Shown: positions 14,638 to 61,222 of the stretch, piece after piece
Layout of the letters: each line of letters begins with the position of its first letter
Numbering within the stretch: the first letter of the stretch is position 1
NCBI GenBank assembly: GCA_051294905.1
Contig: CM119371.1
Location: 18,292,001-18,356,000 of the forward strand
DNA from: Botryllus schlosseri
Lineage: Eukaryota
Reading direction: 5' to 3'
Length of the DNA stretch: 64,000 bases
Translations under genes and position numbers: made by a program
The notes under the pieces: model-generated
Database searches by the model: none
Told to the model about the DNA's origin: nothing
What the model saw: only the letters and a program-made list of their open reading frames with translations

Positions 14638-16068
14638 TTAATTACGACTTTTTCCGCCACTATGAACATCAATATGAGCTTTCAAGTGCGATTTTCTATT
14701 GAATTTTTTCTCACAAACATCGCATTCATAATTTTTGATACCAGCATGAATTTCAAGATGCTTCCTTATGTTCGATTGCGTAGTAAATCGCCACCCGCAA
14801 ATACAACATTCGTGATTCTTGACACCTGTATGCATATCCAAATGATTGTTCAAGTTCTGCTTTTGAGAAAATTCTCTCCCACAAATATCACATTTATGAT
14901 GTTTGATACCAGCATCTGCAGCATGAGTACCGAGATGGCACCTCAGGTAAGATCTTGAAGTAAATCCTCTCCCACAAACACCACAGATTATATTATTCTT
15001 GATACCAACATGCACATCCATATGGATATTGAGGGATTGCCTGGTAGTGAATTCCTTTCCACAGACAATGCAGCTATGACTCTTGACACTTGCATGCACA
15101 TCAGTATGAGTTCTGAGTTGACTGCTATGAATAAATTCTTTTCCGCAAATTTCACACTCATATCTTTTGACACCTACATGTATAGCGAAATGATTCCGGA
15201 GACATGACTTCTGAGAAAATCTTTTCCCACAAATTTCACATTCATGATTCTGAACACCAGCATGCTTATCCAAATGATTCCGGAGTCGCCACCTCTGAGC
15301 AAATCCTTTCCCACAAATATAGCATTTATGATTTTTGACATCATAATGAATACCAACATGAATTTTCAAGCTAGATCTTGCAGTAAATACTTTCCCACAA
15401 ACGTCACAGCTATGATTGACTCCAGCATGCATGTCAGTATGAACCTTCAGATTACTACTTCGAGCAAATTCCCTCCCACAAATTTCACATTCATGATTTC
15501 GTATGCTTGTATGAGTATCAAGATGCCTCTTCAAATCTTGTTTTACGGTAAATTCTTTTCCACAAACATCACATTTATGATTTTTGACATCAGTATGAAT
15601 ATCAAGATGATTTTTCAAGTTGGATCTTGCAGTAAATACTTTTCCGCAAACACCACAGCTATATTTGACACCGAGATGCCTATCGGTATGAACCTTCAGA
15701 TTACTTATGGCAAATGCTTTCCCACAAATTTCACATTCATGCTTTCTCACGCCAGTATGAATACCAAGATGATTCTTCAAGCTAGATCTTGCAGTAAATA
15801 CTTTCCCACAAACATCACATCTATGATTGACACCGATATGCCTATCAGTATGAACCTTCAGATTACTACTTTGAGCAAATGTTGTCCCACAAATTTCACA
15901 TTCATGATTTCTCACGCCAGTATGAGTATCGAGATGCCTCTTCAAGCCCTGCCTTGCGGTAAATTCTTTTCCACAAATAGAGCAATTGTGATTTTTGATA
16001 AGTATACGTTGTTCACCGACTGTATGCATCATCATATGCCTCCTCAAGCTGAATCGATAAGAGAACAC
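14638..16068 (-). CDS. Tandem C2H2 zinc-finger protein, 16 fingers (paralog 1)
   Basis: Uninterrupted ORF with 16 CxxC-x12-HxxxH motifs (finger 4 is one residue short); first in-frame ATG at 16035; true 5' structure unknown. Confidence 0.93.
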   Translation of the reverse strand: MFSYRFSLRRHMMMHTVGEQRILIKNHNCSICGKEFTARQGLKRHLDTHTGVRNHECEICGTTFAQSSNLKVHTDRHIGVNHRCDVCGKVFTARSSLKNHLGIHTGVRKHECEICGKAFAISNLKVHTDRHLGVKYSCGVCGKVFTARSNLKNHLDIHTDVKNHKCDVCGKEFTVKQDLKRHLDTHTSIRNHECEICGREFARSSNLKVHTDMHAGVNHSCDVCGKVFTARSSLKIHVGIHYDVKNHKCYICGKGFAQRWRLRNHLDKHAGVQNHECEICGKRFSQKSCLRNHFAIHVGVKRYECEICGKEFIHSSQLRTHTDVHASVKSHSCIVCGKEFTTRQSLNIHMDVHVGIKNNIICGVCGRGFTSRSYLRCHLGTHAADAGIKHHKCDICGREFSQKQNLNNHLDMHTGVKNHECCICGWRFTTQSNIRKHLEIHAGIKNYECDVCEKKFNRKSHLKAHIDVHSGGKSRN

Positions 16069-16310
16069 TGAGGCGACTGAGCAGCAATTGTCTCAATATC
16101 TCAACGATGACGAGTCACAATGAAGGCTCACAACACGTGGCTCAGTGTCTGGCCTTTCAGAAAAATTCTTTCCATGAACACGCGGCAGGGTTTTTGATGA
16201 CACGGAAAGTTGATGTTAGAGTCCAAGATACAGTGCGCGGGTTGTGCAACGAGCCTGTATTTGTTGTTCCACTTGAAAGGTCTACGCATTGGGTTTCGTA
16301 TAAAGCTAGA
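16069..16310 (-). other. Conserved 5' part of the ZNF exon with candidate splice acceptor
   Basis: Minus-strand ...cattctag|cttt conserved in all three paralogs (exon would start at 16305, 44820, 61458); no shared open frame into the fingers. Confidence 0.45.
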
Positions 16311-18480
16311 ATGGATGTGATATAAAATAAAGCACAGCTTGCTTTTGGTGTCAACATTTTATGGAAATCAGAATGACCAAGAAAGTCAACCGATAACACA
16401 TATATCTCGAGCCCCAAAACACACCAAGGTTTCAAAATGGAAATGTCAGGAAGAAGTATCTGTCTGCAATTTCCGACAATACAGGCCATAGGTAATATTT
16501 AGATTTCATATCGAATTGTATTAGCTAGCAAGTAGAATTAGCTGTTATATATTGTTAAATATATCCAATAACTGAAGACAACAAGACACCTGGATACGCC
16601 AGGAAGACGTCAGTTTTTGCGGGGTATCAGTCGGCAACCTAAACAGAAATTTGGATTACACCTTCGTCAGCTACACATGACGGAAGACATGCAATGTTCG
16701 ATTTTGAAGATTTAGTTCTGCATTAATCAGTTCGGAGACACTCTCAAAATTAAAGGGATCCAAGTATAGTTTCGACTTACATTTAACACAGTCAATTGTT
16801 TAGGGATAGTCGCAATTATCAATCCCCTGGGAATAAAAATTACACGTATACACTATACACATATGTTAGCTGTAACAAGCTAATAAACATCTGTGGCTCT
16901 CAATCGGGCAAATCATTTCTATGGGGTCTGAGAAGCCAAGATGAATAAGCTAAATGATCCGAATTCGCGTTAAAATTTGAGAGTGTCCGCAGGGACCTTC
17001 ACGGACAAAATAATATTTGCAAAGGCAAGAAGGTTGCGAGCCACTGTAACATCCTATGCTAAGCTCAAGTTATATTATAGTTTTGGGCTTTTATTAATGA
17101 AGATTTCGATTGAAGACTGGCATTTTCTCCAGCCACTAGGTCGGATATAGAAAAGCGACATAGACCAATATTCAGTGCTTCGGATTATTAGGGGCAAATT
17201 GGTTCCAGCATAACGGGAAGTCGCAAATCGACTGTGAACAAAATTGTACAAACTACCGATCTATTCAACTACCTACTGTTTTTTTTTGAGTAATTCTGGT
17301 TGCATATTTTTAAATGTGTGTATTTCTAGTTTCAGTAGCACACTGAAAAATGATTGCCGAACAACTAGAAAAAATATGTCGTTTGGCGTGACCCGTAATA
17401 GTGTTGTTCTGTCGTGTGATATTCATACAGCCATCGCTAGCTCAGAGTCATATCTAATAACAGTAGCGTAGCCTGAGAGCTGAAAAAAATTAGTATGATG
17501 CAATAGACCAGTGTTGGAATGACCCGTGTCATGACTTGATTTGAGTCACCTTGCAAAAATGACTACTCTTTGACTTGACGTTACAGAAATGCGGAAACCC
17601 ACTCCTTTTCAAGCGCGGAACCCTGTCCACTGAAATGCCCATTTGAACTCTTATATCCGATCGCAATTCATTATTTCATATTATCAGTGCTGCGTGTAGC
17701 CAACCAGCGAAAAGCGTGTTGCCGATTAGCGAGCTCGTCTGCGTGGACCGTAACGCGATCCTTCGCTGATGTTGTTTTTCATTTTGTACGCGAAATTATG
17801 TCATTGATTGCTGTGCGCTCGCCGCAATCTTCCCAAGCCTGATTTATCGGGTCTCCACCAAGCCTAGCTCCACTAGCCTGCACACTGTGCACAGTATGGT
17901 TGTTCAAGAGAAACATTTTTCCGGATTCCAGTCATGCACTTATTACACTGTCAGGTTACTCTAACAAAAACGCTGCACACCAAATTTGATTTAATTCTAA
18001 CAAGTATAGGCAGCCGCACAGCCACGTAAAAATTTTAATTTATTGAAAGAATAAATCACATTTTTCTGTTAACCCAGTGAAAAATGTGGAGTTGTCTTCA
18101 AAAACGCTGCAAAATAAATTTGACACATTTCCAATTAGTAGAATTGGACTAAATCGGATTGAAGATTTTCGTTGATAATTTTCTTAACAACTCTACTGCA
18201 CATTGCAATACACAATCGTATCTGCAATGGGCCTGGGGTAAAAGAAATTATCGCTGGCTTAACTATCGCGTCTCGAGCCTCGCAGGCTTTTGCTCCTATA
18301 TCTTGATAGCTTGAAGCAGGGTTGTAGCCAAGTCACAAGGTTCCGAGTCACAAGTCAAACTCAATTTTAGAGTTTTGATTCGAGTCATTTTCAATTCATC
18401 AGCGAGCCAAGTCGGAGCCCAAGGCATTCATGTGTAGCAGACTGCTGATGCGTCGAATGTCTAACTCATCATGTTTACAG

Positions 18481-19712: not shown

Positions 19713-19896
19713 GTTTACAGCAAATCAGATCGACGGGCATATAAATAAGTTGTGTGCTAGATCTTGATGTTACTGAAAGAATAAATTGCAATACTTATAT
19801 TATAACGCGAAACAATAACTTCATATTGTCAATTTATTCTCTAAAAGCTTTTCGACTGACTCTCATCAGTAGCGAACGTCAGTAATAGGGTGAAAC

Positions 19897-20475
19897 TATA
19901 GATAACTAACCTTCGGATAGATACGCAACACCCGTCGTCACGCTTACTTGCCCGGAGTGAATTACTTCTCAGCAATCTGAACGCAGCACAATTGTTAATC
20001 CCATAGCTGACGACCCACGTGCTTAAATTCAATAAAGTTGATCTTATTTGAAAACTACTGTCGCACTGATTCCGAAAATATACATTAAAATGTTATCAGG
20101 ACAATGGAACTCCTTGAAATACACCTCAAAGTCTGAAAATCGGCATTGTTCTAAACAATCGCAGCGACGCGGCACAATGACCATAACAATGCTCTTTGCG
20201 TGGTTGCGATTGTTCAGAACAATGCCGATTTTCAGACTATGAGATGTATTTTTTCAAGGGGGTTTCATTGCCCTGATTAGATTTTATTGTATATTTTCGG
20301 AATCAGTGCGACAGTAGCTTTCAAATAAGATCAACTTTATTGAATTCAAGCACGCAGGTCGTCAGCTATTGGATTGGCAATTATGTTGCGTTCAGATTGC
20401 TGAGCAGTAATTGCCTCCGGGCAAGCAAGCGTGACGACGGATGTTGCGTATCTATCCGTAGGATAGTTATCTATA
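19897..20475. mobile_element. ~580-bp foldback element, P-superfamily/Galileo-like
   Basis: Near-perfect palindrome tatagataactaacc ... gatagttatctata; 7-bp direct repeat gtgaaac at 19890-19896 and 20476-20482. Confidence 0.85.
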
Positions 20476-20710
20476 GTGAAACAAATTCAAAGTGTATGAA
20501 ATATTTTGTCTGTACTGTGAGGTGAAATATTTTGTATGACGTAATAATAACATAAACAAACAGCTAGTAGACAGGCAAGATGCGGTAGTAACGATACAAA
20601 ACAAAAGAATGGATTAACAATATGAATAGACAATATGAAGTTACTGTTTCGCGTTATTCTGAAGTTCTGTACCCCAAACGGCTTGTTCAAATAATTTTAT
20701 TACACATTTG

Positions 20711-21095
20711 TCTAGATGGTGGTCTAGGAACCTCGAGCCCTGAGTAGTATTTAGCATTTCCCGTGCGTTGCAGCCTTGCTCATCCTCACTTCGATTAGGC
20801 CAAGGCTGGCCAACTTGCGACCGTCAATATATGCAATTTGAATTTACAAATTACTTACATAATCTTTGAGGGATTCTAATTCAACATAACAATTTTCTTC
20901 ACAGTTCAGGGTGACATGGATTTTTCGTGTCAATATAATAATATGTCCTCGCAATCTGAGCCAGATCGCGTACAAATGCAAACTGGAGGGGAAAACGATG
21001 CGCCCCATAAAAAGACTAAGTCGGAATCGTGTGCGTCACACGAATGAAGGTTTTTCAGACACATTTGGGCGACTCGCTTGACTCTACCGACAATT
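20711..21095. repeat. Segment duplicated at 63601-64000 (upstream of paralogs 1 and 3)
   Basis: tctagatggtggtc.aggaacctcgagccctgagtagtatttagcattt... aligns closely by eye over ~390 bp. Confidence 0.95.
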
Positions 21096-22874: not shown

Positions 22875-24811
22875 CAATGTTTCCTCTAATTTTTCACGAG
22901 TCTGCGCAAACACGCCAACTCACTGCGCAGGCCCTTGGACAACAGTGCGCAACCAGGCCCCCATAGTGTGATATATATATGTTCTGGGGGACTTCGACCC
23001 CCAGACCCCCCTTGGGCTGTGCGGTTTTTACCGCTGCGTATCATTTACATTGGCAGACCGTTCGGTGGGTGTGACGTCTGAACGCGCGAAGCGCGAAAAA
23101 GTTATGTAAGTCATGATTGAGTCGGTATATTGCTATCAACTTTTTATGCTCTCTCTGCTCACGTAATCAGATTTACTGGTTGAGCTGATCGAGTCAGGTA
23201 TGTTGAAAAATGTATAGGACCCCTAAATAGTACTTAAAGGTATTCGGGCGTAACTACTTATGTCTTCCGTTTTCACATGCTGCGACAACCATTCCATGTA
23301 AAATGGCTCTCCCCTCTTTGTTAATTTGGCTTGGTGAAGGGATGAGCATGAGAAACTACCCATTCGTTTTGTCATCATTAAAAGAGATCATTATAAACAG
23401 TGACAATCAGAATTAGCGAGTATTCACTCAACGTTGGCCACACAGGCAAGCAGCTAGCCGAAACATTTGTTGCGACACAAATGGACGCTTGTAGCCGCAA
23501 GTACTATAGACCAGTGGTTCTCAACCTTTTATTAGACACGCCCCCCTGTTTGATAGTGAAAAAGTTCGCGCCCCCCTTATCGTCATATCACAAAATCCAC
23601 CCGGGAGGCTAGCAACCCCAACAGATTCTTTGATGGTATGGACGGTTATGAATGTTGATGAGAGAATAAAAATATATGAAATTGGGTCTATATAGAGAGA
23701 AACACGCAGGCATTGGAGGTAAATCGCGCGAAGCGCGAAAATTTTTTTCAGGTGACCGCATCTTCGCGCCCCCCTTCAGATGTTTCACGCACCCCAAGGG
23801 GGCGCGCCCTCCAGGTTGAGAACCCCTGCTATAGACGGCGAATCGTAATTCTGTGCGACCGTATGTGACATGGGGACATATAGATTACTAGTAGACATAC
23901 ACGGTTACACACACACACGACTGGCACGAAAACGCACTTCAAATCAATACATGTGATCGATGTTAAAACACTGATGTGACGTCTTATTAATACCGGCAAT
24001 ACACTCATTACTATCAAGACATACAGTAATTTATATTGATACGAATATTCAAGTCTGACCGAAGCAAGAACAATATTAGCGTATGACCTCATCGACAGAA
24101 CATTCCCGTTCAAACGAATCGAATAAAATCAAAATTTCTGCTGCTGAAAAGCTGATTTAATTCAACGCCCCACAGTGCGCAGTTAAAGCATATGCCGATA
24201 CACGTTTGCAAGGGGATGGATTTTTTCAAAAATATTGGTGCTTGTACTTGCATATTCTGCATATTATGCTATCTCACCATACGTGATCATATTTGCCTGA
24301 TGGAAGTGATGACTTCGAAAATTCACATGTAATTGTACAGTAAATCTTATGCAATGTTCATGCCACGCGAAGAATACTATTCGTTAGTTTCTCGCAGATT
24401 AACTTCGAGTTAGTCCATTGTTATTTATAACTTTGTTAAACCATGTTATTTCACCATTCCCAGAAAAAGACACCGCTACTAAAATGATATCAGTATCGCT
24501 GACGCGTACGAGATCATACTAAAAGAAAAATGTCTTTCGTGAGGCCCACGTCATTGCAAATTATCATTTGTTCACAGTGCGCAATTGTACCTCGGTTTCA
24601 GACTTCAGCGAGAACACTATCTGCCCTTGGCAATGTTCCCTCTAATTTTTCACGAGTCTGCGCGCTTGCGCGGTACCTTGGAGAACAGTGCGCAACGATT
24701 AAAAAAAATGTCATCACTTCAGATTTTTTGTGCGCAGCTTAGATTTTCTGTGCGCAGAGACCGTTTCAGCACTGCGCATTTGCGCACGTGCGCAGCTTAG
24801 AGGGAACATTG
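22875..24811. mobile_element. Composite hAT-like element (CAATGTTCCCTCTAA TIR) with two left ends
   Basis: Perfect TSD gtcagggg at 22867-22874 and 24812-24819; complete 181-bp MITE at 24631-24811 plus an extra left end at 22875. Confidence 0.75.
23512..23828. mobile_element. hAT (Charlie-like) MITE
   Basis: TIR cagtggttctcaacct / aggttgagaacccctg; perfect TSD ctatagac; relative at 54781-55093. Confidence 0.93.
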
Positions 24812-27842: not shown

Positions 27843-27989
27843 ACTCATCATCGCTTGTATTGTATAGTATTGTATTGATAAGGTACGGCAGTGGTGCTTA
27901 TAGCCTTATGTGGCTTTGCGCTCCACGACAATGGCACGATCGCAATTTCAACATGACAAATGTAATTTCAACAGTTCAATTATAGCTAG

Positions 27990-28429: not shown

Positions 28430-28432
28430 AAT

Positions 28433-30432: not shown

Positions 30433-30551
30433 ACTTTTACTGACTCACACAAGAGCCAGGGATACAGAGTCGGTAAATTTTACCGCCGACTCCAAGTCCG
30501 GCTCCCGACATTTTAAATATTCTGACAACAATTCCGACTATGACTCGCGAG

Positions 30552-43560: not shown

Positions 43561-44601
43561 CTACAAACACCTCCATTTACGATTTTTCACACCACTATGG
43601 ATATAAAAATGATTTTTCAAGTCTGATTTTCTACTGAACTTTTTCCCACAAACATCGCATTCATGATTTTTGATGCCAGCATGAATATTAAGATGTTTAG
43701 TAAGGTTCGGTTTATAAGTAAATCCCCATCCACAAATACTACATTTGTGATTCTTGACACCTGCATGGATATCTAAATGAATCCGGAGACTCCACTTTTG
43801 ATCGAATTCTCTCCCACAAACATCACATTTATAATTTTTGGTAACACCAACTGCAGCATGAGTACCAAGATGCCTCCTCAGGGAAGATCTTGAAGTAAAT
43901 ACTTTCCCACAAACACCACAGATAATGTGATTATTGACACCAACATGCCCGTCCATATGAATATTGAGAGATTGCTTTGTAATGAATTCTTTTCCACATA
44001 CAATGCAGCTATGACTCTTGACACCCACATGCATATCGATATGAATCTTGAGATTATTTCTATGACCATATTCTTTTCCACAGATTTCACATTTATATCT
44101 TTTGACACCTGCATGCATAGCCAAATGCTTCATGAGAGGTGACTTCTCAGCATATCCTTTCCCACAAATCGCACATTTATGTTTCTGGACACCAGCATGC
44201 ATATCCAAATGATTGTGGAGACGCCACCTCTGAGCAAATCCTTTCCAACAAATTTCACATTTATGGTTTTTCCGGTCAGTATGGGTGTCAAGATGCTTCT
44301 TCAAGCTAGATCTTGCACTAAATACTTTCCCACAAACACCACAGCTATGATTGACACCGGCATGCCTATCAGTATGGACTTTCAGATTGCCACTTCGAGC
44401 AAATGCTTTCCCACAAATTTCACATTCATGATTTTTCACGCCAGTATGAGTGTCTAGATGCCTCTCCAAGTCAGATTTCGCGGTAAATTCTTTTCCACAA
44501 ATATCGCAATTATGATTTTTGATGCAAATTTCAAATATACGTTGTTTACTGGCTGCATGCATCATCATACGCCTCTTCAAGCAGAATTTATATGAGAACA
44601 A
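43561..44601 (-). CDS. Tandem C2H2 zinc-finger protein, 11 fingers (paralog 2)
   Basis: Intact ORF with 11 C2H2 motifs; first in-frame ATG at 44568; flanks homologous to paralog 1. Confidence 0.93.
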   Translation of the reverse strand: MFSYKFCLKRRMMMHAASKQRIFEICIKNHNCDICGKEFTAKSDLERHLDTHTGVKNHECEICGKAFARSGNLKVHTDRHAGVNHSCGVCGKVFSARSSLKKHLDTHTDRKNHKCEICWKGFAQRWRLHNHLDMHAGVQKHKCAICGKGYAEKSPLMKHLAMHAGVKRYKCEICGKEYGHRNNLKIHIDMHVGVKSHSCIVCGKEFITKQSLNIHMDGHVGVNNHIICGVCGKVFTSRSSLRRHLGTHAAVGVTKNYKCDVCGREFDQKWSLRIHLDIHAGVKNHKCSICGWGFTYKPNLTKHLNIHAGIKNHECDVCGKKFSRKSDLKNHFYIHSGVKNRKWRCL

Positions 44602-46039
44602 TGACCATCAGTTGTCTCATTGATAAACTGTCAGAATGAAGGTTCACAACATGTGGCTCAGTATCGGGCTTTTCAGAAAATTATCTCCATGAACACGCAG
44701 CAGGGTTTTTGATAACACTTCAAGTTGTTGTTTAAGTCCAAGATATAGTGCGAGGGTTGTGCAACGATCCTGTATTTTGTATTCCACTTCAAATGTCTAC
44801 GCATCAGGTTTCGTACAAAGCTAGAATGAAGGTAATCTAAAATAGAGCACAGTTTGATTTGGTGTCAACATTTTATGGTGAAGCAATGGAATTCAGAATG
44901 AGTAATAAAGCCTATCGAAAACACATTCTTCAAGCGAGCAAGTAGAATTAGCTGTCATATCTTGGTAAATATATCCAGGAATCCAGCAACTGACGACGAC
45001 AAGATACCTGGATATACCAGGCTGACATCAGTTCTTTTGGAAGTGCCAGTTGGTAAGCTAACCACATTTAGACAACACTGGGGAGCCTTTGTCAGCCATA
45101 CGGAAGGCATATAAGGTTAGGCTAAAGATTCAGTTTTGCATGACTCAGTTGGGCGACACTCAAAATTAACGCGAGCCAACTCAGCCAAGTTTTGACATAC
45201 CCATAACAAAGTCAATGGTTTAATTAGAGAAACGACTAACAAACACACGCACAGTCACACACAGATGTTAGCTGTAACAAGCCAATAAACATCTCCGACG
45301 CTCTCAACCATTCAAGTCATTTTAGGGGATTAGAAAACCCCTGAATTTGCAAGATAAATAATTGAGCTTAATTCGAACTAAAGCACGGGCGGTGCGCAGA
45401 GACCTTCACGGACAAAAGGGTTCGCGAAGGCAAAAAGGTTGCGAGCTACTGTAACATCTAATGCTGTGCTCAAGTTATGTTACAGTTGTTGGCTTTTATT
45501 AATGAAGATTTCGATTGAGGGCTGGCATTTTCTTCAGCCACCAAATCCGATATAGAAAAGTGAAGTAGACTCAGTGGGACGGATTCCTAGGGGCACATGA
45601 GCCATGGATTCCAGAGGAACTGGTCCAGATATGGTGAACCGGAAGAAATGTGAGCCCCGATTTTGGTCATGGTGAAGAGGCAAGTTATAACGTAGCGAGT
45701 TTCATTAAATAAAGAGGTAACTGCATTGCATAATAAAAAGTGTAGCATTCAAACAGGAAGTGAAAACAGGGCTGGGCAAAGTGATTGGAATGCCAGTAGT
45801 GGAATCTGCATTGAGTATTTATTCACATGATTCGAGTCACAAGAGAAGATTTCTCAGAGTACCAAAACTATATGCTCCTTGCCACCCGGAGTTAATTTAT
45901 CAACAATAACTATAATTTCGAAACTCTTTTCCACTGGGGGAGTCTGCATGATAGAGAATACACGGTACCCCACAAAGCCACGCACGTTGGTGAAAATAAC
46001 ATCGTAATCAGCATTCAGCATCAGAATTGTACAATATAC

Positions 46040-48505: not shown

Positions 48506-50244
48506 AGGGTTGGTTCGATTTGTTTGAAATAAGGTCACATTCGTTAGAAATAAGGTCAGTCTCATGTTTGAAATAAGGTCAGTCGCTATATTCACTATAA
48601 GGTCACTTGCAGTACCAAGGCACGATTTCCCAGTGGTACCACAGTCCGAACACATTCCAGACATGATGTACGAACACGCCCCAGACACGGTGTCCTAGTG
48701 GAACACTGAACACAAAACGAAAATACCCAGACCAGGGCTGGCCAGCCTTTTCGACCAAACGGCCACATTCGATTGACGAACTTTTGCGCGGGGTACTATC
48801 CGCGCTAAGGGCGAAAATTTTTCAAGTTCATAGGTCAATAATATTGTCATTTGACTATATTGCGGGCCTGCTGTATATCGCTGGGCTATGTTTGCGAGGA
48901 CTTGGCTATTCGGCACATGGACATATCGATATCGAAAGCTGCGACCAACATGCGTCAATCATTTCGTGCCTATAGATTTCATAGTCGACGGTCTTACTGC
49001 GAGCGCAAACGCAAGGTCGCATATGTTGAACGACACTTTGTCTCGTAATCGCGAATATAGCTAGACTCAATCTGATACATTGGGTGTTCTTCCATTTTCA
49101 CAAAAGGGCAACAATATTAAAAACAAGAAATCGAGTGACAACATTTTGCGCTAAGTTTATAGAAAATTTTTACCTTTGATAAATGAATCGCAAATTATTC
49201 TGCTTTATTGTAGTGTACGAAGATATACCAATATGTGAATGGCTGATGGATCTGTCAATGCGCCGAAACTGATATTTTAGTCACCACATCCTAAGTGTTG
49301 CGGCCAGACTAATCAAAATTTTGGATGGCCTTGCAAGTTCGCAATCTGTGCAATCCATTTTTGATGATATTAGAACTTTCGGAAATGATCTCGCGGGCCA
49401 CGGGTTGGCCGGCCCTGCCCTAGACTATGTCCGAATGACAGCATAGGCCGAACACACCCCAGACACGATGTCCGAGTGTCAACACAGTCCGAACACACCC
49501 CACACACCATGTCTGCATGGCAACACAGCCCGAACACGCCACCTCAGACATGATGTCCGAAACCCAGACGTGATGTCCTGGTACTGCAACTGACCTTGTA
49601 GTGAATATAGCGACTGACCATATTTCAAACATGACTAACCTTATTTCAAACATGAGACTGGCCTTATTTCAAACATGACTATCCTTATTTCAAACATGAG
49701 ACTGTCCTTATTTTAAACATGAGACTGACCCTATTTCAAACATGAGGCTGATCCTATTTCAAGCATGAGACTGACCCTATTTCAAACATGACTAACTATA
49801 TTTACATTGCGTCTGGGGTGTGTTCGGACTGCAATTCCAATCGGACATTGCGTCTGGGGTGTGTTCGAACATCATGTCTGAGGTATGTGTCGGCCTGTGT
49901 TGCCATTCGTACATGGTTTCTGAGGTGTGTTCGGCCGTGTTGACACTCGGACATAGTGTCTGGGGCATGTTCAGACTTGAGGTGTGTTCGGGCAGTGTTG
50001 CCATTCGGACATCATGTCTGGAATGTGTTCGGACTGGGTTACCACTGGGAAATCGTGCCTTGGATATCTTGGTACTGCAACTGCCGTTATAGTGAATCTA
50101 GTGACTAACCTTATTTCAAACATGAGACTGACCTTATTTCAATCATGACCAACCTCATTTCAAACAGGAAACTGACCTATTTCAAACAAAACTGACCCAT
50201 TTCAAACAAAACTGACCTTATTTCAAACAGATAGAACCAACCCT
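48506..50244. mobile_element. Foldback-type element with 20-22-bp internal minisatellites
   Basis: Termini agggttggttc / gaaccaaccct; inverted arms of ~170 bp; arrays of tttcaaacatgagactgacctta (49620-49790, 50105-50230) and inverted ccgaacac/gtgttcgg repeats. Confidence 0.8.
48733..49417. mobile_element. hAT-like MITE nested in the foldback
   Basis: TIR cagggctggccagcc / ggttggccggccctg; TSD acccagac/ccctagac. Confidence 0.8.
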
Positions 50245-50716
50245 TCCCGATAATTGTCATATTCCTCACAACGCATACGCAGGGTTGCCAGTAGCCTATA
50301 CGACAACAACAGTGGAGGTGCATAAATATATGACAACTGAAGCCACTGTTTCAACGGTGTATAACTGTATTCAACTGCCGATGCAGTTCTCTAATCCGGT
50401 GTTTCTCGATATGTCTTGTGCAAATACTACCAGTAGACTAGAGATTAACAGCAGCAAACTTTTCTTGAAAATACCAAATGCAATGTTGCAATGTTGCAAA
50501 AAATGGGTAGACTTTTATTATGTCAAAACGAATTCTGCAGCGGCATGTCTTGAAAATCCGTGCCTTCGATTTCATATGAACAAGTGCCGAAAATCCATTT
50601 CCACAAAGATGGGTGGTGGTGAATGAAATAATACCGCAAAACACTTCCGACGACACTTTTGGGTATCGTATGATCGCAACATATATTGCACCAAAAACGC
50701 CCAGCCTAGTAGATTC

Positions 50717-51615
50717 GGCACTTCTTCGTTATTCCCCACCCATCGAAAAAATGATCCCCATGACACCAATAAATGCTCCCCATGAACAATAACAGAAAAA
50801 TTTATAAACGTCAAAATGAATTGTTTTTCGCGTTGGGGTGGGGTAGACAGATATTAGGGATGGGGGAGGGAGATATTAGGGTGGGTCAGGATATCCTAAG
50901 ATTAGGGGTGGGAGGGGGATATTAGGGTAGGGTAGGTTAGCGTTAGTCTTAGGATATCCTAAGATTAGGGTAAAGGTTGGGGTTAAGATATATTAAGATC
51001 AGGGTTGGGGATATTTAGGGGGGGTTAGGTTAGGATATCTTAAGATTATGGATGGGGAGGGGATATTAGGTGGGTTAGGTTAGGATATCCTAATACTAGG
51101 GATGGGGGAGGGGATATTAGGGTCAAGGTTGTGGTTAGGATATCCTAAGATTAGGGTTGAGGATATTAGGGTCGGGAGATATTAGGGTGGGTCAGGATAT
51201 CCTTAAGATAAGGGTTGGTTAGGGTTAGGATATCCCAAGATTAGGGTTGGGGGTGAAGATTACAATACTCCCAACCCTAATCTTGGGATATCCTATCTCA
51301 ACCTTGAGCCTAATGTTAGGATATCCTCCCACCCTACTAACCCCAACCCTAATCCTAGGATATCTAGACCTTGACCCTAACCCACCCTAAAACGTAATGC
51401 CCCCTTCCCACGACCCTAATATCTCCCACCCCAACCCTAATATTCCCTTCCCTGACCCTAATATCTCCCACCCGACCCTAATAGTCCCCTAGCCCTAATC
51501 CAAATGCGAAAAACAATTTATTTTGACGTTTATAAATTTTCACATGTTCCTGGGAATCATTTATTGGTTTTATGGTGATCACTTCTGGATGTGTGGGGAG
51601 TAACGAAGAAGTGCC
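50717..51615. mobile_element. Merlin-like MITE with internal head-to-head telomere-like repeats
   Basis: ~115-bp TIRs starting ggcacttcttcgtta / taacgaagaagtgcc; perfect 8-bp TSD gtagattc; TTAGGG-rich 50833-51255 then CCCTAA-rich 51268-51500. Confidence 0.85.
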
Positions 51616-53877
51616 GTAGATTCTACCTAGCAGCTCATTATGAAGTCATTCTAGAATACGGGTCATGCATATCACAGGAGAAACATTGCAAACATTTCGA
51701 GGTCACCCTCTGATCGACCTTACTACTCCAACTTTTAATTTTTCCACAAACCCAAACGAAACATCTCTAAACAGTAATATGCTTTGTCTCAGTAGGCTAT
51801 TGACAATTTGGCATTTCAAATGAATTTGCACATGTGTATTTAATCTCAGACTGTCATCCTGTTGATCTGAGTCATGAAGTTTTAGCAGTAATGAAGCAAA
51901 ACTACCTTGTGATCCCTTAGCAGCCTCCCAAGACATTAGCTTAGAACTTTATATTTTTCACTCTTGTCTTACCTCTTTCATAACACAGCTTGCATTAAGT
52001 TATTACTCACCTCAGTTAGGCAGTCTTCTAGGGACTTAGCCGCGAAACATACTACTCGAAAATTGAAGTACTCGAATATCTAGCAATTAGATACATCACT
52101 GACATGAAAGAACAGCAAAGACTCTCTCCAAAATGTCAATGCCTATGCCCAAAACATCTCGAAAGTTCAATGTAAAGTAAAGGCTCTTGACACTCTGGAG
52201 TCTCGATGGAGCAGTGGTTCTCAATCTCAACCATCTCTCCAGCGCCCCCTAGAGGGTGATTTTGATGGGGCTGAAACTATACATTACTAAACTACGGAGG
52301 TTCGTAATCTATTGAAGCGCTCAAGGAGCGATATGAGGGGCGCTGCGATCAGAGCGTGGTATAAGGACGCTGGGGAGAAAATCGTCGCAGTAGATGATGA
52401 TCTAGGGACATGTGATTAAATAGTAGAACAATAGTTCTATACAGTCATCACCGAATTCTCATTGCAAATTAGCATTCGACAAAATCTGTCAAATCTCGAA
52501 ATTTATCACCACGCCCTGCGCGAAATACCGACGATGTTTGCGATATGTTTACATGAATGCAATCAGGACCGTAACTGCCGCACCCCAAACCCCAAAATTC
52601 CGGTGGGGTGAGCTTGAAGAGGACCCAAAATTATTTCATGAATGAACATAAATTATCCAACTTTACCAACAACAAAAATCGCGCTGCAGATAACATGCGA
52701 CTCCAAGAAGTGTGCCAGAACGATCGACAGCGAGGAAGATTAAGCCGAAATAACGACTGTCCGGATGCTGATCGAAAACTTCTATATATACACAATTACA
52801 TATATGTCTTATTGTCCATCGGCGCCTAAATGTCTGGTAGCGAATGTTCCTTTCCTGGCAATCTGATTAACCCCACAAGTCAAATGCCATTCCGCAGAGA
52901 AAAATTATTTCCCATTAAAAAAATACCAATTTGAAATCGTGCGGCAGGGGTTCTCAACCCGCGGCCCGCAGACGGGCATTTTGCGGTCCGCGACATCTCT
53001 CATTGTAAACGCAATTGCTGCTGGCACGATGTTGTTGAATAATAATTTAGCTACTTAGCTCTTTTGTCGCACATGCAGTCTCTGTCTCGTTTGATTACTG
53101 ATTCTTTGATGTTTTCTGGTTTTTTGATATATGTCCGAGTGTAGATTGTTATTGTGTTGAATCGGTATTCGGTTAGACTCTGGTTCAAGACAATTCCGTT
53201 GTGTAGTACACTTTTAAAGAGTGTTTCACTCACCGCGAATGGTTTGAATAGATACAAGAACAAGGAAGGGTAAATGAAATGGCGGGAACTGAGTTGGTAA
53301 GTCTGCGTGGAACAATCAATTTGCTTTCTCATGTACAAATGGAAAACCGATGAGACATATTTGTCGATGATCAGTTGTCGTAACGAAGCGTAGATGCTGA
53401 CTCACAGACATTGCATAGCAAATTATCTGGGTGCTTTTTATCTAGACTTACCATATTTTGGAAATCTAAAAAGAGGACACTTTTTCAGAAATTTGAGACT
53501 TGCTAAACCGGAGAAGAATTCTCAAAAATCAGTGAATTTTTCCCACTTTGTGACCGGTTGACTAAAAAAAAGGTCAACTTCCCGCTCACAGCTCAAAATA
53601 ACGTTTTTCACTCCACATTGCTAGGTGGATGACTAAAAAAAAAGGTCAACTTTTCGCTCAGAGCTCTAATCACCGTTTTTCACTCCGAAATACCCGCCGT
53701 AGCGTCACTTCTGTGCTAAATTCCGGCATATCATTCGCATTTTGCTCTAAGTGTGACCTAAATTTTCAAGAAAGAGGACAAAATGTCAAAAAAGAGGACA
53801 GAAGGGCGTCCTCTGAGGACACTTTCAAAAAATTCAAAAAAGAGGACAAATCCTCTTAAAAGAGGACGTATGGCAAC

Positions 53878-55499
53878 CAGAGTTGGATCAATTACAATAT
53901 TTTAAATCAATTACAATTACAATTACTTCATTGCATGTTTCAATTACATTACAATTACAATTACTTAATGCTAAAAATATCAAATGGCAATTACAATTAC
54001 AATTACTGTTAAACTTGTAATTATTTACAATTATAATTACTATTACAATTACTTTTAAATAGGGAATTGATTCAGTAAAGAGGTGTTCTTTGACAACCGT
54101 AGCGACGTAATTAGCAACAATCTCGAGCTATTCCTGTTTCATTCCTGATATGTAGAATACCCTTTATATAAAAAAAGTCGAACGTATTCGAACTATTCCT
54201 AATCACGAGTACTGAAAACTACAAGCACAGAAAAACGTTTCAAGCGACTGTTAAGAACCAATTGATTTGAGCGACTAACAGCGAATATAGGCCCCAGGAC
54301 AGTCAATGAAATGTAATCAAACGATTAGGCTACTCAGAGCTGAGTCAGGATCATGAAATGTAATTGGTATGGCGTCAGCGATAAGGATGATACCGATACG
54401 GTGCGTAAAATTAAAATAAATGCAAAAGGAAAGAACCTCCTGATAACTAAGAATTACAATATTTTGGTTCGCATTTACATTTTCACTTGCTCGGAAACTG
54501 TTAGATTGCATTTGATGAATATTAGGGTGCGAAAAGTTTTAGGCTCCAGTAAATTTGGCCAAGATTGGAGGTAAGATTGAGATAACATCTCTACGTGCGT
54601 GATCAAGTTTGATGAAGCCATGGTTGGAAACTTGATTTTTTTGCTGTTGTTGCAACAAGCCTCGGTACTGGTCAGAGATTTAATACTTTGACCGTGGTGT
54701 AGGAAAATGGTTCAGCACACGTTTCAGAACAGTTTATTTCCTGTTCATCCATTTTTGAAATATTAAGATTTAGTTTAGGCCACTGGTTCTTTAACTTTTT
54801 TAGACACGCCCCCTTATGACAGTGAATATTTCGTGCCCCCCTTATCGTCATAGCACACAATGAACATGAAAGTTAGCAATCCTCACATATAGTTTGATGG
54901 AATGGAAAGGTTATGACTGTGTAATGAAAGAATTCTCCAATACGAAAATCAGACTATGCACCGAGCAATAACCATAAAACGGAGGTGAATCGGGCCAAGC
55001 GCGGAAAAGATTTCAGTTCACCGGAGCGTCGCGCCCCGTTCAGATGCTTTCACGCCGCCCAAGAGGGGACCGCCCCCAGTTTGAGAACCACGGGTTTAGC
55101 CTATATTGTAATTCACAAAGTTTGCTGTGGCTACTAAAGTATGGGAAACAGTTTAGCGTGACCGAATTATCTAGTTATAACGCAGCACGCATAGAACACC
55201 GATGTAAATAGGCCAATTATTACATGTGGTGACTGTTTACTAAAACCTTAACACCCCTCGTCGTCATCCTGGTTCGTACCAAATTTTCCTGGTGCGACGA
55301 ATAAATGATTGATTGAATGATTATTTTATGTTGTGATTGTCAGGTTTCCATGAAAATGTAATTGATATTGTAATTGAGCAAAATTTTGATCAAATTACAG
55401 TTACAATTACACAAAATAGAAATGCATCAATTACAATTACATGAAAAAATGTATATATTACATTCAGCTCAATTACAAATTACAATTGATCCAACTCTG
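53878..55499. mobile_element. hAT-like element with CAATTA subterminal repeats
   Basis: TIR cagagttggatcaatt / aattgatccaactctg; TSD atggcaac/atggtaac. Confidence 0.9.
54781..55093. mobile_element. hAT-like MITE (relative of 23512-23828)
   Basis: Ends cactggttct / agaaccacgg; TSD gtttaggc/gtttagcc. Confidence 0.8.
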
Positions 55500-58389
55500 A
55501 TGGTAACCCTATTTTTATCAGAGTGGAAATGCGGGCAGGGCAAACGCGGGGAGGGCCGAGCGAAAAACATCAACTTGACAAAGCTGACTCCTATCTGTAT
55601 GACTATTGGTGCATGGCTCTAGCCATGGAAGTAAGGGAGTAGGGTTGATTGGTTTGTTCAGAAATGACCCGAATGCCAGACTTCTTCTCATGTCACTGAT
55701 AACTCAAAGTGATAATGGCGTCTTTGTAACGAAAAAGCTACCGTAATTTGATACTTGCTCGCTCACGTATTGAAACAGAGAGTTCGGTTCTCTGGTGGAA
55801 GGGCTTGAAGGTCCATATACCGACTTGGCAACTAATGCAGTGTACCCTAAATGACGGGATATACTTGCGCCGCTGTAAAATAATATTCTCACAAAAATAA
55901 CCGCAAACTCACGAACACCGTCCATTAATGCTTTAGAGAGCAGAAAAATGTACTAAACGCCCGTATACGACTGTTAAATATGCTAGAGTAGCCTAAATTT
56001 AATAGTAGCCCACAAATTATCGGAAATAATGTTCTGCGGCCCTCAATGTATTTTGCTGTTAAAATGCGGCCCGTTATGCAAGGGAAGTTGAGAACCCCTG
56101 TCGTACGGCATCGTGGAACATGACCTACCTTATTCCATGATTTTTATTTCGGAATATTATTGTTACACCTCATTCAAACCTTAATATTCACCTATTCATT
56201 CGTAGTCGTAGTATGACTTAAATATGTAAGTCATGATGACATTACCTATAGCAGTGGTTCCCAACCTTTTTCTCTTCATTCCCCACTTCAGATATATTCC
56301 GAGCCTTCATTCCCCACCAGGACTGTAACAGCACTTTGTCAGCCCCCCCAAAAAAAACGTTGGTGTTGCCCCCCCCCCACAGGGTGGTAAACCCAACTTC
56401 TGAGGGGTACGCCCCCAGAACCCCTTCATCCTGTACGCTTTCCCCCCGTCACTTATCAGCTACATTGGGTCTACTGTTGCGAGCGTCGCCTTATTTCGAC
56501 CAAACGAGCGAAGCGCGAAAAAATTATATGATTCATGTTTGAATCGGTCAATATGATCGGGATTTGCATATATTTTGCTATCATTTTTTTTTATCTCCTC
56601 TCTGCTCAGGTAATCATATTTACCAGTAGAGCTTAGTAAGGTGTTTTAGAAAAGGTAAGACCCCTAAAGAAGTAGCCTATTAAACATCTTCGGGCGGACC
56701 CGTCCGTATATTGACTTCGTTACAATATGTTATTTCGTGACCTCCCACATCTGCTATTTCAAAAGATATGGAAATCGCCATAACTAAAAGGCACACACGA
56801 TTTCAAATAGGTATTGCTTTACTGGCAAAAAAATTGTCATTTAGGGTTCAGATCGCCAGGACAGGAACATTCGGCGCCAGCTTTTTAGCCACCTATGGAC
56901 ATCGGACAATTGAACAGATATTTTTTCGGTTCTGGTTTTTGTGGTATTCACTATTCATGGCGTTTCTCGACTACTATGGTCATTTACACCAGGCCGATAT
57001 TCTTCATTATTTTCCGTAACTTCTGACTTATAGCACGGCCCTCCTCTAGGCCTTTTGTAAGACGCCGCTTGCGCGGTCGAGAATTAGACATATATATATT
57101 TGTATATTGCATTCCTTCTCGGTTCTCGGCCAAGCTATTTTCGCTGCTGATTGTTCTTGCACACTTCTTGGAGTCGTATGTTACGTGGCTTATAACCTCA
57201 TAGGTGCTGGTGCGTCGAGGCGCAGTAATGGCCGACGCCGAAGTCTCCATTTCTATCAAATCTGCGGAGTTTCGTGGGGGAAGGGTACATTAAATCGCGC
57301 AACCAGTGCGAAAATATTCTGAAAAAGTGCTTAAATTGAAAAAAAACCTCAATTTATTTCAATACACGAAATAATTTTGGGCCCCTTAGAGCTCGCCCCC
57401 ACTTGCGGGCAGTGGTGGCTTTTGGGGTGGGTGAGGTGGGCGGTCGCCCTGCCCCCCTTTTGGATTATGCGCTTTTTTCAAGGATAATAACGAATAAACA
57501 TGGAAATACGTGTACCAAGCGGTACAGATGTGTCAATCATCATCCAATTTCTGCATTTGTTAAAAAAGTCCCGTATCCCGATAATCATCAAGTCTCTGCA
57601 TGCGGTAGAATTACTTAGTTTTGATAAAGTCTATCCTTACACGCATGCAATAACAGACATGGCCGAATCCAGCACCTGACCAAACTTTGGTGGGGTCGAA
57701 GATAGATAATAATAACAGAGCCTCCCCCATAAGTTACGGTTGAATACCTGAAGTCCCCCATCCCCCCCCCCCCCCGATAAGTCTCGCCCGTACAGTCAGT
57801 ATTTGACCCGTGCGCTGTGAAAGGCCCAGGTATGCCCTACGCTAATCTACAAGCCTTCGGGGACCCCTCATTTTCAGGAAGTCACAAAACAAGTCTACCT
57901 CAAGTGTACAACTGTACGATCTAGCCTACATTGTACATATAGCCTACCATGTGCTGTGTGCAGGAATGTACCAGTGTAAAGCTACTCAGGAAGACTTGTA
58001 CCCCTTTAGTTAGTTAACTGTCGATTCATTAACGTTTTTTATGCGGCTGTCAGGATAACGGAGATACCTGTGTTTAAAAGTGAATCGACTCTTCCGATAT
58101 TAAAGATGACAAACTACATGGCGATCATATTTTGTAGCGGGTGGTACATGAACAAATGACGGCTGAAAGCAACGTCATTGTGAAACGAGCGTTCCTGCCA
58201 TCCACGCGAATAGGAAACTAAGTGCTAAATTGCGGAAATATTACACTCAAAGATTTTTATTACCACATCAACATGCCTCTTCGTAGTGTTCAAGGAAGAT
58301 TTCCCACATAAAACATGGCTATGATTCTTACCACCAACATGCATATCTATATAAAGGAATCATGATATTATTCTTTCTTACATAACATC

Positions 58390-61222
58390 TCATTTACAAT
58401 TTTTTACACCACTGTGAACATCAATATGAACTTTCAAGTCATATCTGCTATAGAACTTTTTCCCACAAACATCGCATTCATGATTTTTGATGCCAGCATG
58501 AATTTTTAGATGCCTCCTTAGGTTCGATTTATCAGTAAATCCCCTGCCACAAATATAACAATTGTGATTCTTGACACCTATATGCATATCCAAATGATTC
58601 TTGAGCCCCTCCTTTAGAGCGAATTCTCTCCCACAAATGTCACATTTATGATTTTTGATACCAGCATCTACAGCATGAGTACCAATATGGATCCTCAGGT
58701 AAGATCTTGAAGGAAATCCTTTTCCACAAACACCACAGAATATATGATTCTTGACACCAACGTGCACATCCATATGAATATAGAGGGATTGCCTGGTGGT
58801 GAATTCTTTTCCGCAGACAATGCAGCTATGACTCTTGACACTGGCATGCACTTCCGCATGAGTTCTGAGATGACTTCTTTGAATAAATTTTTTTCCACAA
58901 ATTTCACACTCATATCTTTTTACACCTGCATGCATAGCCAAATAGGCCCGGATACCTGAATTCTGAGCAAATCCTTTCCCACAAATATCACATTCAAGAT
59001 TCTGGACATGGACACCTGCATGCATATCCAAATGATCCCGGAGACGCCCCCTCTCAACAAATCCTTTCCCACAAATATCACATTTATGATTTTTCACGCC
59101 AGTATGAGTGTTAAGGTGCCTCTTCAAGTTAGATCTTGCAGTGAATACTTTACCGCAAACGCCACAGCCATGCTTGACACCGGCATGCCTATCAGTATGA
59201 ACCTTCAGATTACTACTTTGAGCAAATGCTTTCCCACAAATTTCACATTCATGATTTCTCACGCCAGTATGAATACCAAGATGATTCTTCAAGTAAGGTC
59301 TTGCAGTAAATATTTTCCCACAAACACCACAGCTATGATTGACACCGACATGCCTATCGGTATGAACCTTCAGATTACTACTTTGAGCAAATGCTTTCCC
59401 ACAAATTTCACATTCATGATTTCTCACGCCAGTATGAATACCAAGATGATTCTTCAAGTAAGATCTTGCAGTAAATATTTTCCCACAAACACCACATCTA
59501 TGATTTACACCGATATGCCTATCGGTATGAACCTTCAGATTACTACTTATGGCAAATGCTTTCCCACAAATTTCACATTCATGCTTTCTCACGCCAGTAT
59601 GAATGCCAAGATGATTCTTCAAGTTAGATCAGTGGTTCTTAACCTTGCCCCCAGCGCCCCCCAGGGGGCGCTGGCGATTTTGAAGGGGGGCGGAAACGCT
59701 CAGGGGGCGATATGGGGGGCGCTGGGCTCAGGGGGGCGGTATGGGGGGCGCTGGAGAAAAATGGCGTCGCAGTAGATGATGTGGTGATGGGACATATCCT
59801 TAATGAGTATTCAGAGCAAATTAACCCCGAAAACTTCGTTACATATAGCCTTCAAAATACATATAGGTTTAATTGTCCATGGGCGCCTATATGACTGACA
59901 CCGAATGTTCCTGTCTTGGCAATCTGAACCCCAGAAGACGAATTCCATCTGGCAGGGAAAAATTATATGTCAGTGAAAAAATACCAATCTGAAATCGTGT
60001 GCGTCTTTCAGTTTAGTACGATTGGGCGACAGGGATATTCCTGTTGGGCGATATCCCCGTTGAGCGATTCTATATTTTTTTGATATTGCAGACAGGGGGT
60101 CACGAAATAACATCATGCAACGAAGTCATACCAACGGGTTCGCCCGCCCGAATATGTTCAATTATTAGTAACGGGCCCTCCAGTTTCCAAGAAACCTCAC
60201 AATGTTCGCTTTAAGTTTTGATGAGTCTGCGCACACTCAACAACTCACTGCGCTGACCCTTGGACAACAGTGCGTAACGACTAAAAAAAGGTATTATTTC
60301 CGGATTTATTGTGCGCAACGTAGATTTTCTGTGCGCAGAGACCGTGTCAGCACTGCGCACGTGCGCAGCTTAGAGGGCACATTGCACCTCACTCAGCTCT
60401 ACAGGTAAATGTGTTTACGTGAGCAGAGAGAGGATAAAAATTGATCTCAATTTACATGCAATTCCCGATGATATTGACCAATTCAATCATTAATTAGTGA
60501 AATTTTTCGCACCCGAATATGTTTAATTATTAATTACGTGCCCTTTATTTTCCTGTACAACAGCTCACTCAGAGCTACTGGTAAATCTGATTACGTGGGC
60601 TGAGAGGATAAGACGTTTATAGCGATGTGATTACCACCTATTCATTCATGCATTATAGGAAATTTAGGTACCTAGGGCGACCAGGCCACACAAACTTTGC
60701 TGACCATCGAAATCACGCCATGGGATTCGTGGGGGCGAAGCCCTCAGAAGTTTGGTTTATCACGGTATGGGTGCGCAAGGCAATCGTTTTTAGGGGGGTT
60801 GACGAAGTGCTGTTACGGCCCTCCCTGTTACTCATTGTCTTTATTACATTCCTGACAATATGAAGTTGGGGGGCGCTGGAGCACAATAATTATTGAAAGG
60901 GGGCGCTGGAAGAAAAAAGGTTAAGAACCACTGAGTTAGATCTTGCAGCAAATACTTTCCCACAAACATCACATCTATGATTGACACCGATATGCCTATC
61001 AGTATGAACCTTCAGATTACTACTTTGAGCAAATGCTTTCCCACAAATTTCACATTCATGATTTCTCACGCCAGTATGGGTATCGAGATGCCTCTTCAAG
61101 TCCTGCCGTGCGGAAAATTCTTTTCCACAAATATAGCAATCGTGATTTTTGATAAATATACGTTGTTCACCGACTGTATACCTCATCATATGCCTCCTCA
61201 AGCTGAATCGATATGAGAACAC
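58390..61222 (-). pseudogene. Tandem C2H2 zinc-finger gene, 17 fingers (paralog 3), disrupted in finger 3 by a transposon
   Basis: ORFs 60890-61222 and 58390-59622 rejoin in frame (...VFAARSN-LKNHLGIH...) once 59630-60941 is removed; no other stops; finger 11 has H>Y. Confidence 0.88.
59630..60933. mobile_element. hAT (Charlie-like) non-autonomous element inserted in ZNF paralog 3
   Basis: Perfect 17-bp TIR cagtggttcttaacctt / aaggttaagaaccactg; perfect TSD agttagat (59622-59629, 60934-60941); nested CAATGTTC MITE 60200-60384. Confidence 0.97.

What the first reader, a model, noticed from the sequence alone, without database searches (positions are those of the whole stretch)
14638..61222. 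Rapidly diversifying, KRAB-less C2H2 zinc-finger cluster in a MITE-dense region (candidate transposon-surveillance array)
Seen: the last 8 fingers are positionally equivalent in all three paralogs. Scaffolds are conserved while recognition helices diverge, e.g. SQKQNLNN/DQKWSLRI/ALKEGLKN, TTQSNIRK/TYKPNLTK/TDKSNLRR, NRKSHLKA/SRKSDLKN/YSRYDLKV and SQKSCLRN/AEKSPLMK/AQNSGIRA. No KRAB, SCAN, ZAD, BTB or SET domain is visible. Known: clustered duplication plus helix divergence typifies KRAB-ZNFs and other TE-responsive ZNF families. Inference: a lineage-specific invertebrate ZNF family in an arms race, possibly against the short subterminal motifs (GACTCGAGTC, GGAGTC, TCCGG, CAATTA, GTGAAC, AGGAC) of the surrounding DNA transposons.
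Basis: partly seen in the sequence, partly recalled or inferred. Interest (0 to 1): 0.75.

Follow-up and report, generated by a model that had tools for sequence, protein, structure and literature searches.

The report
Three diverging zinc-finger gene copies
Three duplicated zinc-finger genes, one broken by a small jumping element, keep their structural residues while their DNA-reading residues change freely; this is the usual pattern of animal zinc-finger families, and nothing here shows that they target the neighbouring transposons.

Summary
The observation largely holds. Three minus-strand C2H2 genes (A 16 fingers, B 11, C 17) share their last 8 fingers in register, and Pfam finds no KRAB, SCAN, ZAD, BTB or SET domain. 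Structural codons are under purifying selection (omega about 0.1). Contact codons change about 2.6 times faster than the remaining ones (omega 1.1-1.7), but omega >1 is significant only under one codon-frequency model (p=0.025 versus 0.11), so positive selection is suggested, not shown. Contigs of a probable RNA run tile B and its stop-containing 5' leader, which favours a finger-only protein. No link to the named transposon motifs was found; a crude binding-code test gave chance results. Effector-less clustered ZNF families are known (hemipteran ZF271-like), and ZNF-transposon conflict is already published as a metazoan-wide model. The scan noted a similar pattern elsewhere in this genome (e1-7804400). 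Verdict: new member of a known kind.

The parts
14638..16035 (-). ZNF gene A: single ORF, 465 aa, 16 C2H2 units (A4 one residue short), no other domain
43561..44568 (-). ZNF gene B: single ORF, 335 aa, 11 C2H2 fingers; shortest and probably ancestral layout (B1-B11 correspond to A6-A16)
   Evidence: tiled by contigs of probable RNA run X7
60934..61189 (-). ZNF gene C, 5' part: ATG, fingers C1-C2 and first half of C3; the frame runs into the insertion and stops at 60890 (99 aa)
59630..60933 (.). Non-autonomous hAT-type element, 1,304 bp, identical 16-bp terminal inverted repeats, perfect 8-bp target duplication (59622-59629 and 60934-60941), inserted in finger C3; gene A shows the matching empty site
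   Evidence: the hAT label rests on the 8-bp duplication and the TIR type (recalled criteria)
58390..59629 (-). ZNF gene C, 3' part: rest of C3 and fingers C4-C17; C4-C9 are recent two-finger (165-bp) tandem duplicates; C11 has His->Tyr
16036..17199 (-). 5' flank of A, homologous to B 44569-45598 (JC distance 0.19-0.29) and, for 16037-16787, to C 61190-61943 (0.058); contains a dead finger whose HMMMH supplies the present ATG, and an upstream in-frame stop shared by all three genes
44569..44838 (-). Probable 5' leader of B: covered by X7 contigs (44321-44585, 44612-44838), with stops in the finger frame
   Evidence: X7 is RNA only by the tool's guess
61190..61943 (-). 5' flank of C, 94% identical to that of A; zero depth in bin 61192-61858 in X23 and X7
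15658..16787 (-). A/C high-identity tract (5' flank to finger 4, 94-98%), pointing to recent gene conversion or unequal crossover
20711..21094 (-). Far-upstream block shared by A and C (63601-63997; JC 0.083), with a GTAAGT donor-like site at 20858/63750; frames broken by indels; role unknown
13837..14637 (-). 3' flank of A, partly homologous to B 42870-43217 and C 58043-58389 (JC 0.14-0.24)

Best explanation
A small piece of a lineage-specific, birth-and-death family of finger-only tandem C2H2 DNA-binding proteins in a repeat-rich marine invertebrate genome. An ancestral 11-finger gene was duplicated with several kb of flank. A and C then grew by tandem copying of finger pairs or triplets and exchanged their 5' ends. 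Zinc-ligand and core residues stayed under purifying selection while base-contacting residues changed at or somewhat above the neutral rate, so the copies probably read different DNA sites. Copy C has since been knocked out by a hAT-type MITE. Shown: anatomy, duplication, mosaic tract, class-specific rates, the insertion. Inferred: translation from the MM start as a finger-only protein (B has RNA-like support, A has none), sequence-specific DNA binding, and a repressive or chromatin role through unknown partners. Targets are unknown. Transposons are a plausible target class by analogy (I put about 0.35 on some intact copy binding some repeat family), but the named motifs have no support.
For: ML omega: structural 0.11, rest 0.66, contact 1.73; contact vs rest p=3.5e-8. 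NG86 contact dN 0.35/0.38/0.52 against dS 0.33/0.24/0.26 and structural dN 0.034. Flank divergence 0.14-0.29 outside the A/C 5' tract. The indels found in four pairwise coding alignments were 6, 6 and 3 bases (the two 6-base gaps are one event in C), whereas flank alignments hold many non-triplet indels. A/C tract 94-98% identical, then 86% or less. Insertion with perfect TIR and target duplication. X7 contigs tile B 43850-44838 with zero depth at 45184-45850. Published parallel: milkweed-bug ZF271-like genes occur in clusters of 4-8, include pseudogenes and carry no other domain (PMC6444547, passages read).
Against: Only three genes, so site classes are small (32 contact codons). RNA support is thin: X7 is RNA only by guess; 2,406 of 2,439 X23 reads fit only partly, so ORF-bin depth cannot be assigned to B or C; gene A was not in the laid stretch. 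An upstream coding exon outside the window or beyond the contigs is not excluded, and no search for longer homologues was run. The upstream 113-aa frame shows a weak synonymous excess between A and C (11 of 24, p=0.02 before correcting for six frames), which may mark a formerly coding N-terminus.
Confidence: 0.68

Rival explanations
1. Transposon-surveillance array: the intact copies are under positive selection to bind subterminal repeats of this genome's non-autonomous DNA transposons and silence or block them without a classical effector domain.
For: Contact omega exceeds 1 in all 18 fits (1.14-2.22, counting the wider-helix class) and reaches p<0.05 in 5 of 8 leave-one-finger-out fits under F1x4. 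Wells et al. (bioRxiv 10.1101/2022.11.29.518450; parts 1-5 of 7 read) report ZNF-TE copy-number correlation across metazoa, a strongest correlation with DNA transposons in cyprinids, and predicted TE binding in octopus, weevil and sea urchin. The two-finger repeat unit in C would suit a 6-bp periodic site, and 6-bp periodic repeats exist in the window (53908-54052).
Against: 0 of 5 F3x4 fits are significant (p=0.11-0.60); dropping the degenerate and the possibly converted finger columns gives p=0.16-0.41. In the young N-terminal repeats contact pN/pS is 0.74 (variant counts). The crude code test gave 2 of 35, as by chance. Three of six named motifs are not enriched. The copy with the largest two-finger expansion is the one destroyed. 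The same paper notes ZNF groups that do not track TEs (dipteran ZAD-ZNFs; about a third of KZNFs target non-TE DNA).
Confidence: 0.2
2. Mostly decaying duplicates: the genes lost their original N-terminus long ago, only zinc-fold integrity was kept for a time, contact residues drift neutrally, and finger-to-finger conversion inflates the apparent helix divergence; the cluster has little current function.
For: Omega(contact)=1 is not rejected in most set-ups. There is a dead finger and a shared stop just upstream of the ATG. A4, C3 and C11 are damaged. The helix half of B6 is closer to the SSNLKV-type fingers than to A11/C12. No depth over the C-type 5' flank in X23 or X7.
Against: Structural omega 0.02-0.13 and overall omega <1 (0.64, p=0.023). 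ORFs of 335 and 465 codons stayed open across dS 0.24-0.33. B is tiled in X7.
Confidence: 0.12

Closest known systems
Hemipteran ZF271-like / APEZ subfamily (Panfilio et al. 2019, PMC6444547; passages read)
   Same: Finger-only tandem C2H2 proteins, tandem clusters of a few genes, pseudogenes among them, lineage-specific expansion, no KRAB or other domain, targets unknown.
   Different: Different animal lineage and an independent expansion; no orthology tested or expected; linkers here are HTGVKNH/HAGVKN-like rather than TGEKPY.
Cyprinid FiNZ-ZNFs and the metazoan ZNF-TE conflict model (Wells et al., bioRxiv 10.1101/2022.11.29.518450; parts 1-5 of 7 read)
   Same: KRAB-less clustered paralogs, variable base-contacting residues, gene conversion and internal rearrangement, repeat-rich setting.
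   Different: FiNZ genes have a conserved N-terminal exon and knock-down evidence of TE repression. Here no such exon was found and there is no functional evidence.
Tetrapod KRAB-ZNFs (as described in the introduction of the Wells paper)
   Same: Clustered duplication, helix divergence on a conserved fold.
   Different: No KRAB domain, so no TRIM28 route; invertebrate host.
PRDM9-type minisatellite finger arrays (recalled, no call)
   Same: Near-identical finger repeats in the N-terminal half of C (92% over a 165-bp period).
   Different: No SET, KRAB or SSXRD domain; the repeat unit is two fingers; the C-terminal 8 fingers are not homogenised; contact pN/pS within the repeats is below 1.

Membership tests
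Tandem (poly-) C2H2 ZNF genes | Five or more C2H2 fingers in one ORF | tested here: met
   A 15 canonical + 1, B 11, C 3' part 13 canonical
KRAB-ZNF | N-terminal KRAB domain | tested here: not met
   No KRAB hit in 9 ORFs at E<=0.01 or in the upstream 114-aa and 59-aa frames at E<=1; exons outside the window not testable
ZAD-, SCAN-, BTB-ZNF and PRDM (SET) | The respective N-terminal domain | tested here: not met
   same limit
Finger-only ZNF (ZF271-like type) | No domain besides the finger array in the mature protein | tested here: inconclusive
Finger-only ZNF (ZF271-like type) | Tandem clustering with turnover and pseudogenes | tested here: met
   Three copies in 47 kb, one disrupted
TE-targeting arms-race ZNFs | Positive selection at helix positions -1, 2, 3, 6 | tested here: inconclusive
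   omega 1.73 p=0.025 (F1x4), 1.47 p=0.11 (F3x4)
TE-targeting arms-race ZNFs | Binding sites enriched in TE families | tested here: inconclusive
   Recalled rule-of-thumb code on one window: 2 of 35 sub-arrays beat shuffles; too weak to decide
TE-targeting arms-race ZNFs | Germline or early-embryo expression and TE de-repression on loss | not testable with these tools
   Tissue and stage of the runs are not given
Non-autonomous hAT element (insertion in C) | Short terminal inverted repeats and 8-bp target-site duplication | tested here: met
   16-bp identical TIRs, perfect 8-bp duplication; criteria recalled
Transposon-borne (cargo) ZNF gene | TIR/TSD bounding the duplicated gene unit | tested here: not met
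   None of the 6 TIR pairs with target duplication found by the hAT-type scan (span under 6 kb) encloses a ZNF gene; other TIR types were not scanned

The most novel reading that the evidence does not exclude
An effector-less invertebrate ZNF family that tunes itself to periodic subterminal repeats of non-autonomous DNA transposons by amplifying a two-finger (6-bp) module and diversifying its C-terminal fingers, and that blocks transposase access or nucleates silencing without any known effector domain; the MITE insertion in copy C would be a hit by the opponent.
Probability: 0.1. Interest if true: 0.65.

Novelty: new member of a known kind. Interest (0 to 1): 0.27.

Why it matters
As it stands, it adds one more invertebrate example of a fast-turnover, finger-only ZNF cluster, with a clean record of how such arrays are born, reshuffled and killed. 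It would matter more if binding to MITE subterminal repeats were shown: whether KRAB-less, effector-less ZNFs repress DNA transposons in invertebrates is open (the Wells paper has predictions but no functional test outside fish). These three genes do not make that question more testable than other such clusters.

Tried and rejected
Whole genome: none held, so no genome-wide paralog set or TE library.

Close homologues: none. No search for longer forms was run.

Upstream 113/114-aa open frame as an N-terminal domain: no Pfam hit; ESM Atlas best score 0.76, a lead only; two HMMER hits were summed weak matches to tandem-repeat proteins. No third-position bias in the three-way block (11/8/10 variable sites by phase), and B has stops in this frame. 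Rejected as a current coding exon, though a weak A/C synonymous excess remains.

Far-upstream block as a coding exon: frames broken by indels of 1, 1, 9 and 2 bases, no Pfam hit, no RNA joint among the 15 joints shown (1,235 not shown).

Rescue of C by splicing out the insertion: inspected by eye; the two obvious GT..AG choices at the element's ends leave an in-frame stop. Polymorphism of the insertion could not be read (most rows not shown).

No RNA holder listed; not used as evidence. Rfam: 0 matches. PLK1 debris, a lead from earlier notes: no Pfam hit in the 5 non-finger ORFs or the frames; no dedicated search.

Discarded results: the codon view and frame counts at the end (B out of register) and the 'first 84 codons' count (start off by one base). 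A random-position permutation test was, which returned nothing, and was not rerun.

Literature: searches listed no paper on this family in ascidians; the library lacks most subscription papers. bioRxiv supplements of the Wells paper were not seen and may hold ZNF counts for this lineage.
Full report
Observation. A six-frame scan found 41 canonical C2H2 motifs on the minus strand, in three groups, plus one spurious plus-strand match. With three degenerate units these make gene A (16035-14638, 465 aa, 16 fingers), gene B (44568-43561, 335 aa, 11 fingers) and gene C (61189-58390, 17 fingers, interrupted). Pfam reports zinc-finger-type families as the strong hits for the four finger ORFs and no KRAB, SCAN, ZAD, BTB or SET family; five other ORFs had no hit. 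The last eight fingers are in register: 21 of 24 have a positional partner as their closest finger at DNA level. They are a selection, however. One column (A12/B7/C13) has identical contact residues in all three genes, and the quoted AQNSGIRA belongs to finger C11, which has Tyr in place of the first zinc-binding His.

Gene C is split inside finger 3 by a 1,304-bp element (59630-60933) with identical 16-bp terminal inverted repeats and a perfect 8-bp target duplication; A shows the empty site. The 5' frame then stops after 99 aa. The same scan found 6 TIR pairs of this type with target duplications in the window, none enclosing a ZNF gene. A and C are mosaics: from the 5' flank to finger 4 they are 94-98% identical, then 86% at finger 5 and 86% over the last eight fingers, not far above the 82% each shows to B. 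The 5' flank distance is 0.058 against dS 0.24 in the last eight fingers. This points to recent conversion or unequal crossover. B1-B11 correspond to A6-A16, so the 11-finger layout is probably ancestral; A and C grew by copying finger pairs and triplets (periods 162-165 and 249 bp). The helix half of B6 resembles the SSNLKV-type fingers more than its positional partners, so some helix divergence may come from finger-to-finger conversion. In all three genes the ATG lies in the HMMMH-type end of a dead finger, downstream of a shared in-frame stop.

Selection. For the 8 shared fingers (208 codons) a three-class codon model gives omega 0.11 at Cys/Phe/Leu/His positions, 1.73 at positions -1, 2, 3, 6 and 0.66 elsewhere; contact against the rest is significant at p=3.5e-8. 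Counting gives contact dN 0.35, 0.38 and 0.52 against dS 0.33, 0.24 and 0.26, and structural dN 0.034. Flanks outside the A/C tract diverge by 0.14-0.29. The excess over neutrality is fragile: p=0.025 with window base frequencies, p=0.11 with F3x4. Across five set-ups, 2 of 5 F1x4 fits and 0 of 5 F3x4 fits reach p<0.05, as do 5 of 8 leave-one-finger-out fits (F1x4 only). In the young N-terminal repeats, variant counts give pN/pS 0.74 at contact, 0.48 at other and 0 at structural positions. The fold was therefore maintained and the reading residues were at least free to change. Positive selection is suggested, not shown.

Expression and gene structure. No indexed holder of B was on record as RNA (no evidence either way). 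Four runs were laid on 43850-63849, which excludes A. Contigs of X7, which the tool guesses to be RNA, tile 43850-44838 with 9-15 differences per 227-325 bases at depth 4-9, with a 26-base gap between listed contigs, and depth is zero at 45184-45850. This fits a transcript of B or a close allele or paralog whose leader of at least 270 bases contains stops in the finger frame, that is, a finger-only protein. The most upstream contig stops at an AG behind a pyrimidine-rich run, a hint of a splice acceptor and no more. In raw RNA run X23, 2,406 of 2,439 reads fit only partly; ORF bins show low depth skewed to the strand expected for these genes (1.73 vs 0.81 in B; 2.92 vs 0.96 in C), which cannot be assigned to these copies. 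The C-type 5' flank has zero depth in both. In DNA-like run X1 the ORF bins show summed depth of 612 and 2,950 against about 90-120 for single contigs, which hints at more paralogs elsewhere; the tool warns that this is no copy number. An upstream 113/114-aa open frame in A and C has no convincing homologue, is broken by stops in B, and shows only a weak synonymous excess (11 of 24, p=0.02 uncorrected).

The transposon link. Repeats cover 41% of the non-ZNF window, and repeat bins have summed depths of 10^4-10^6 in X1 and X5, so these elements are abundant genome-wide and proximity is no sign of targeting. GACTCGAGTC (9 vs about 0 expected), GGAGTC (30 vs 15) and TCCGG (95 vs 61) are in excess; CAATTA, GTGAAC and AGGAC are not. 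A rule-of-thumb recognition code, from recall and not a trained model, put 2 of 35 four-finger sub-arrays above shuffled controls for repeat DNA, the number expected by chance. This neither supports nor excludes binding.

How it most likely works. These are finger-only, sequence-specific DNA-binding proteins in a birth-and-death family: segmental duplication in repeat-rich DNA, finger-module amplification, conversion between copies, change at contact residues, and death by insertion. Anatomy, rates and the insertion are shown; translation, binding and a repressive or chromatin role are inferred (confidence 0.68). Rivals: selection to bind MITE subterminal repeats (0.20) and slow decay with neutral helices (0.12).

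Comparison with known systems. No database protein exceeds 42% identity among the 120 of 526 hits listed, or 51% over a quarter of the length among 14 shorter hits, so the family looks lineage-restricted. The host is an unnamed animal; a marine metagenome is among the weak holders, and earlier scan notes call the genome ascidian-like (not tested here). The milkweed-bug ZF271-like genes are the closest described type: clusters of 4-8, pseudogenes, no domain besides fingers (PMC6444547, passages). Wells et al. (bioRxiv 10.1101/2022.11.29.518450; parts 1-5 of 7 read) already propose ZNF-TE conflict across metazoa independent of accessory domains, list exceptions, and warn that conversion inflates dN/dS. 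Three searches listed no paper on such a family in ascidians, within a library that lacks most subscription journals. An earlier scan note from another locus of this genome reports the same contact-residue bias (e1-7804400; unchecked).

Verdict. A real, ordinary example of a known kind; interest 0.27. The surveillance-by-module-amplification reading is not excluded (probability 0.1; interest 0.65 if true).

Noticed in passing
window 16035-16092, 44568-44607, 61189-61246 (- strand): The start codon of all three genes sits inside the His-x3-His end of a decayed finger, just downstream of a shared stop: an apparent case of start-codon recruitment after loss of the N-terminus.
   Followed up: partly
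window 16160-16498 and 61313-61654 (- strand): Open frames of 113 and 114 aa; in C this frame is continuous with the finger frame except for two TGA stops. Weak synonymous excess between A and C, stops in B, no homologue.
   Followed up: yes
window 20711-21094 and 63601-63997: Block shared by A and C upstream, with a GTAAGT donor-like site at 20858 and 63750; possibly a non-coding first exon.
   Followed up: partly
window 7463-8072, 19895-20477, 28430-29012: Long fold-back elements (arms 181-270 bp, 86-90% complementary); the last two are copies of one family, and the third sits beside or within another repeat at 27928-29062.
   Followed up: no
window 3825-4576, 23512-23828, 32946-33863, 47008-49417, 52945-56100: Five more hAT-type TIR pairs with 8-bp target duplications (0-2 mismatches), some with nested inserts.
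   Followed up: partly
window 33070-33400 (- strand): Inside the 32946-33863 element, a stretch read by eye looks like a decayed C-terminal hAT transposase fragment; not tested.
   Followed up: no
window 3192-3823 and 26839-27447: A 630-bp repeat pair at 76% identity, not classified.
   Followed up: no
window 48506-50244 and 50716-51616: Complex nested inverted and tandem repeats (21-23-bp and 40-bp units; 50-bp G-rich units forming a fold-back).
   Followed up: no
window 44381-44750 and 61050-61469 in run X5: Contigs from another sample differ from the window by 21 of 370 and 18 of 421 bases, about as much as A and C differ in their 5' tract: high polymorphism or close paralogs.
   Followed up: no
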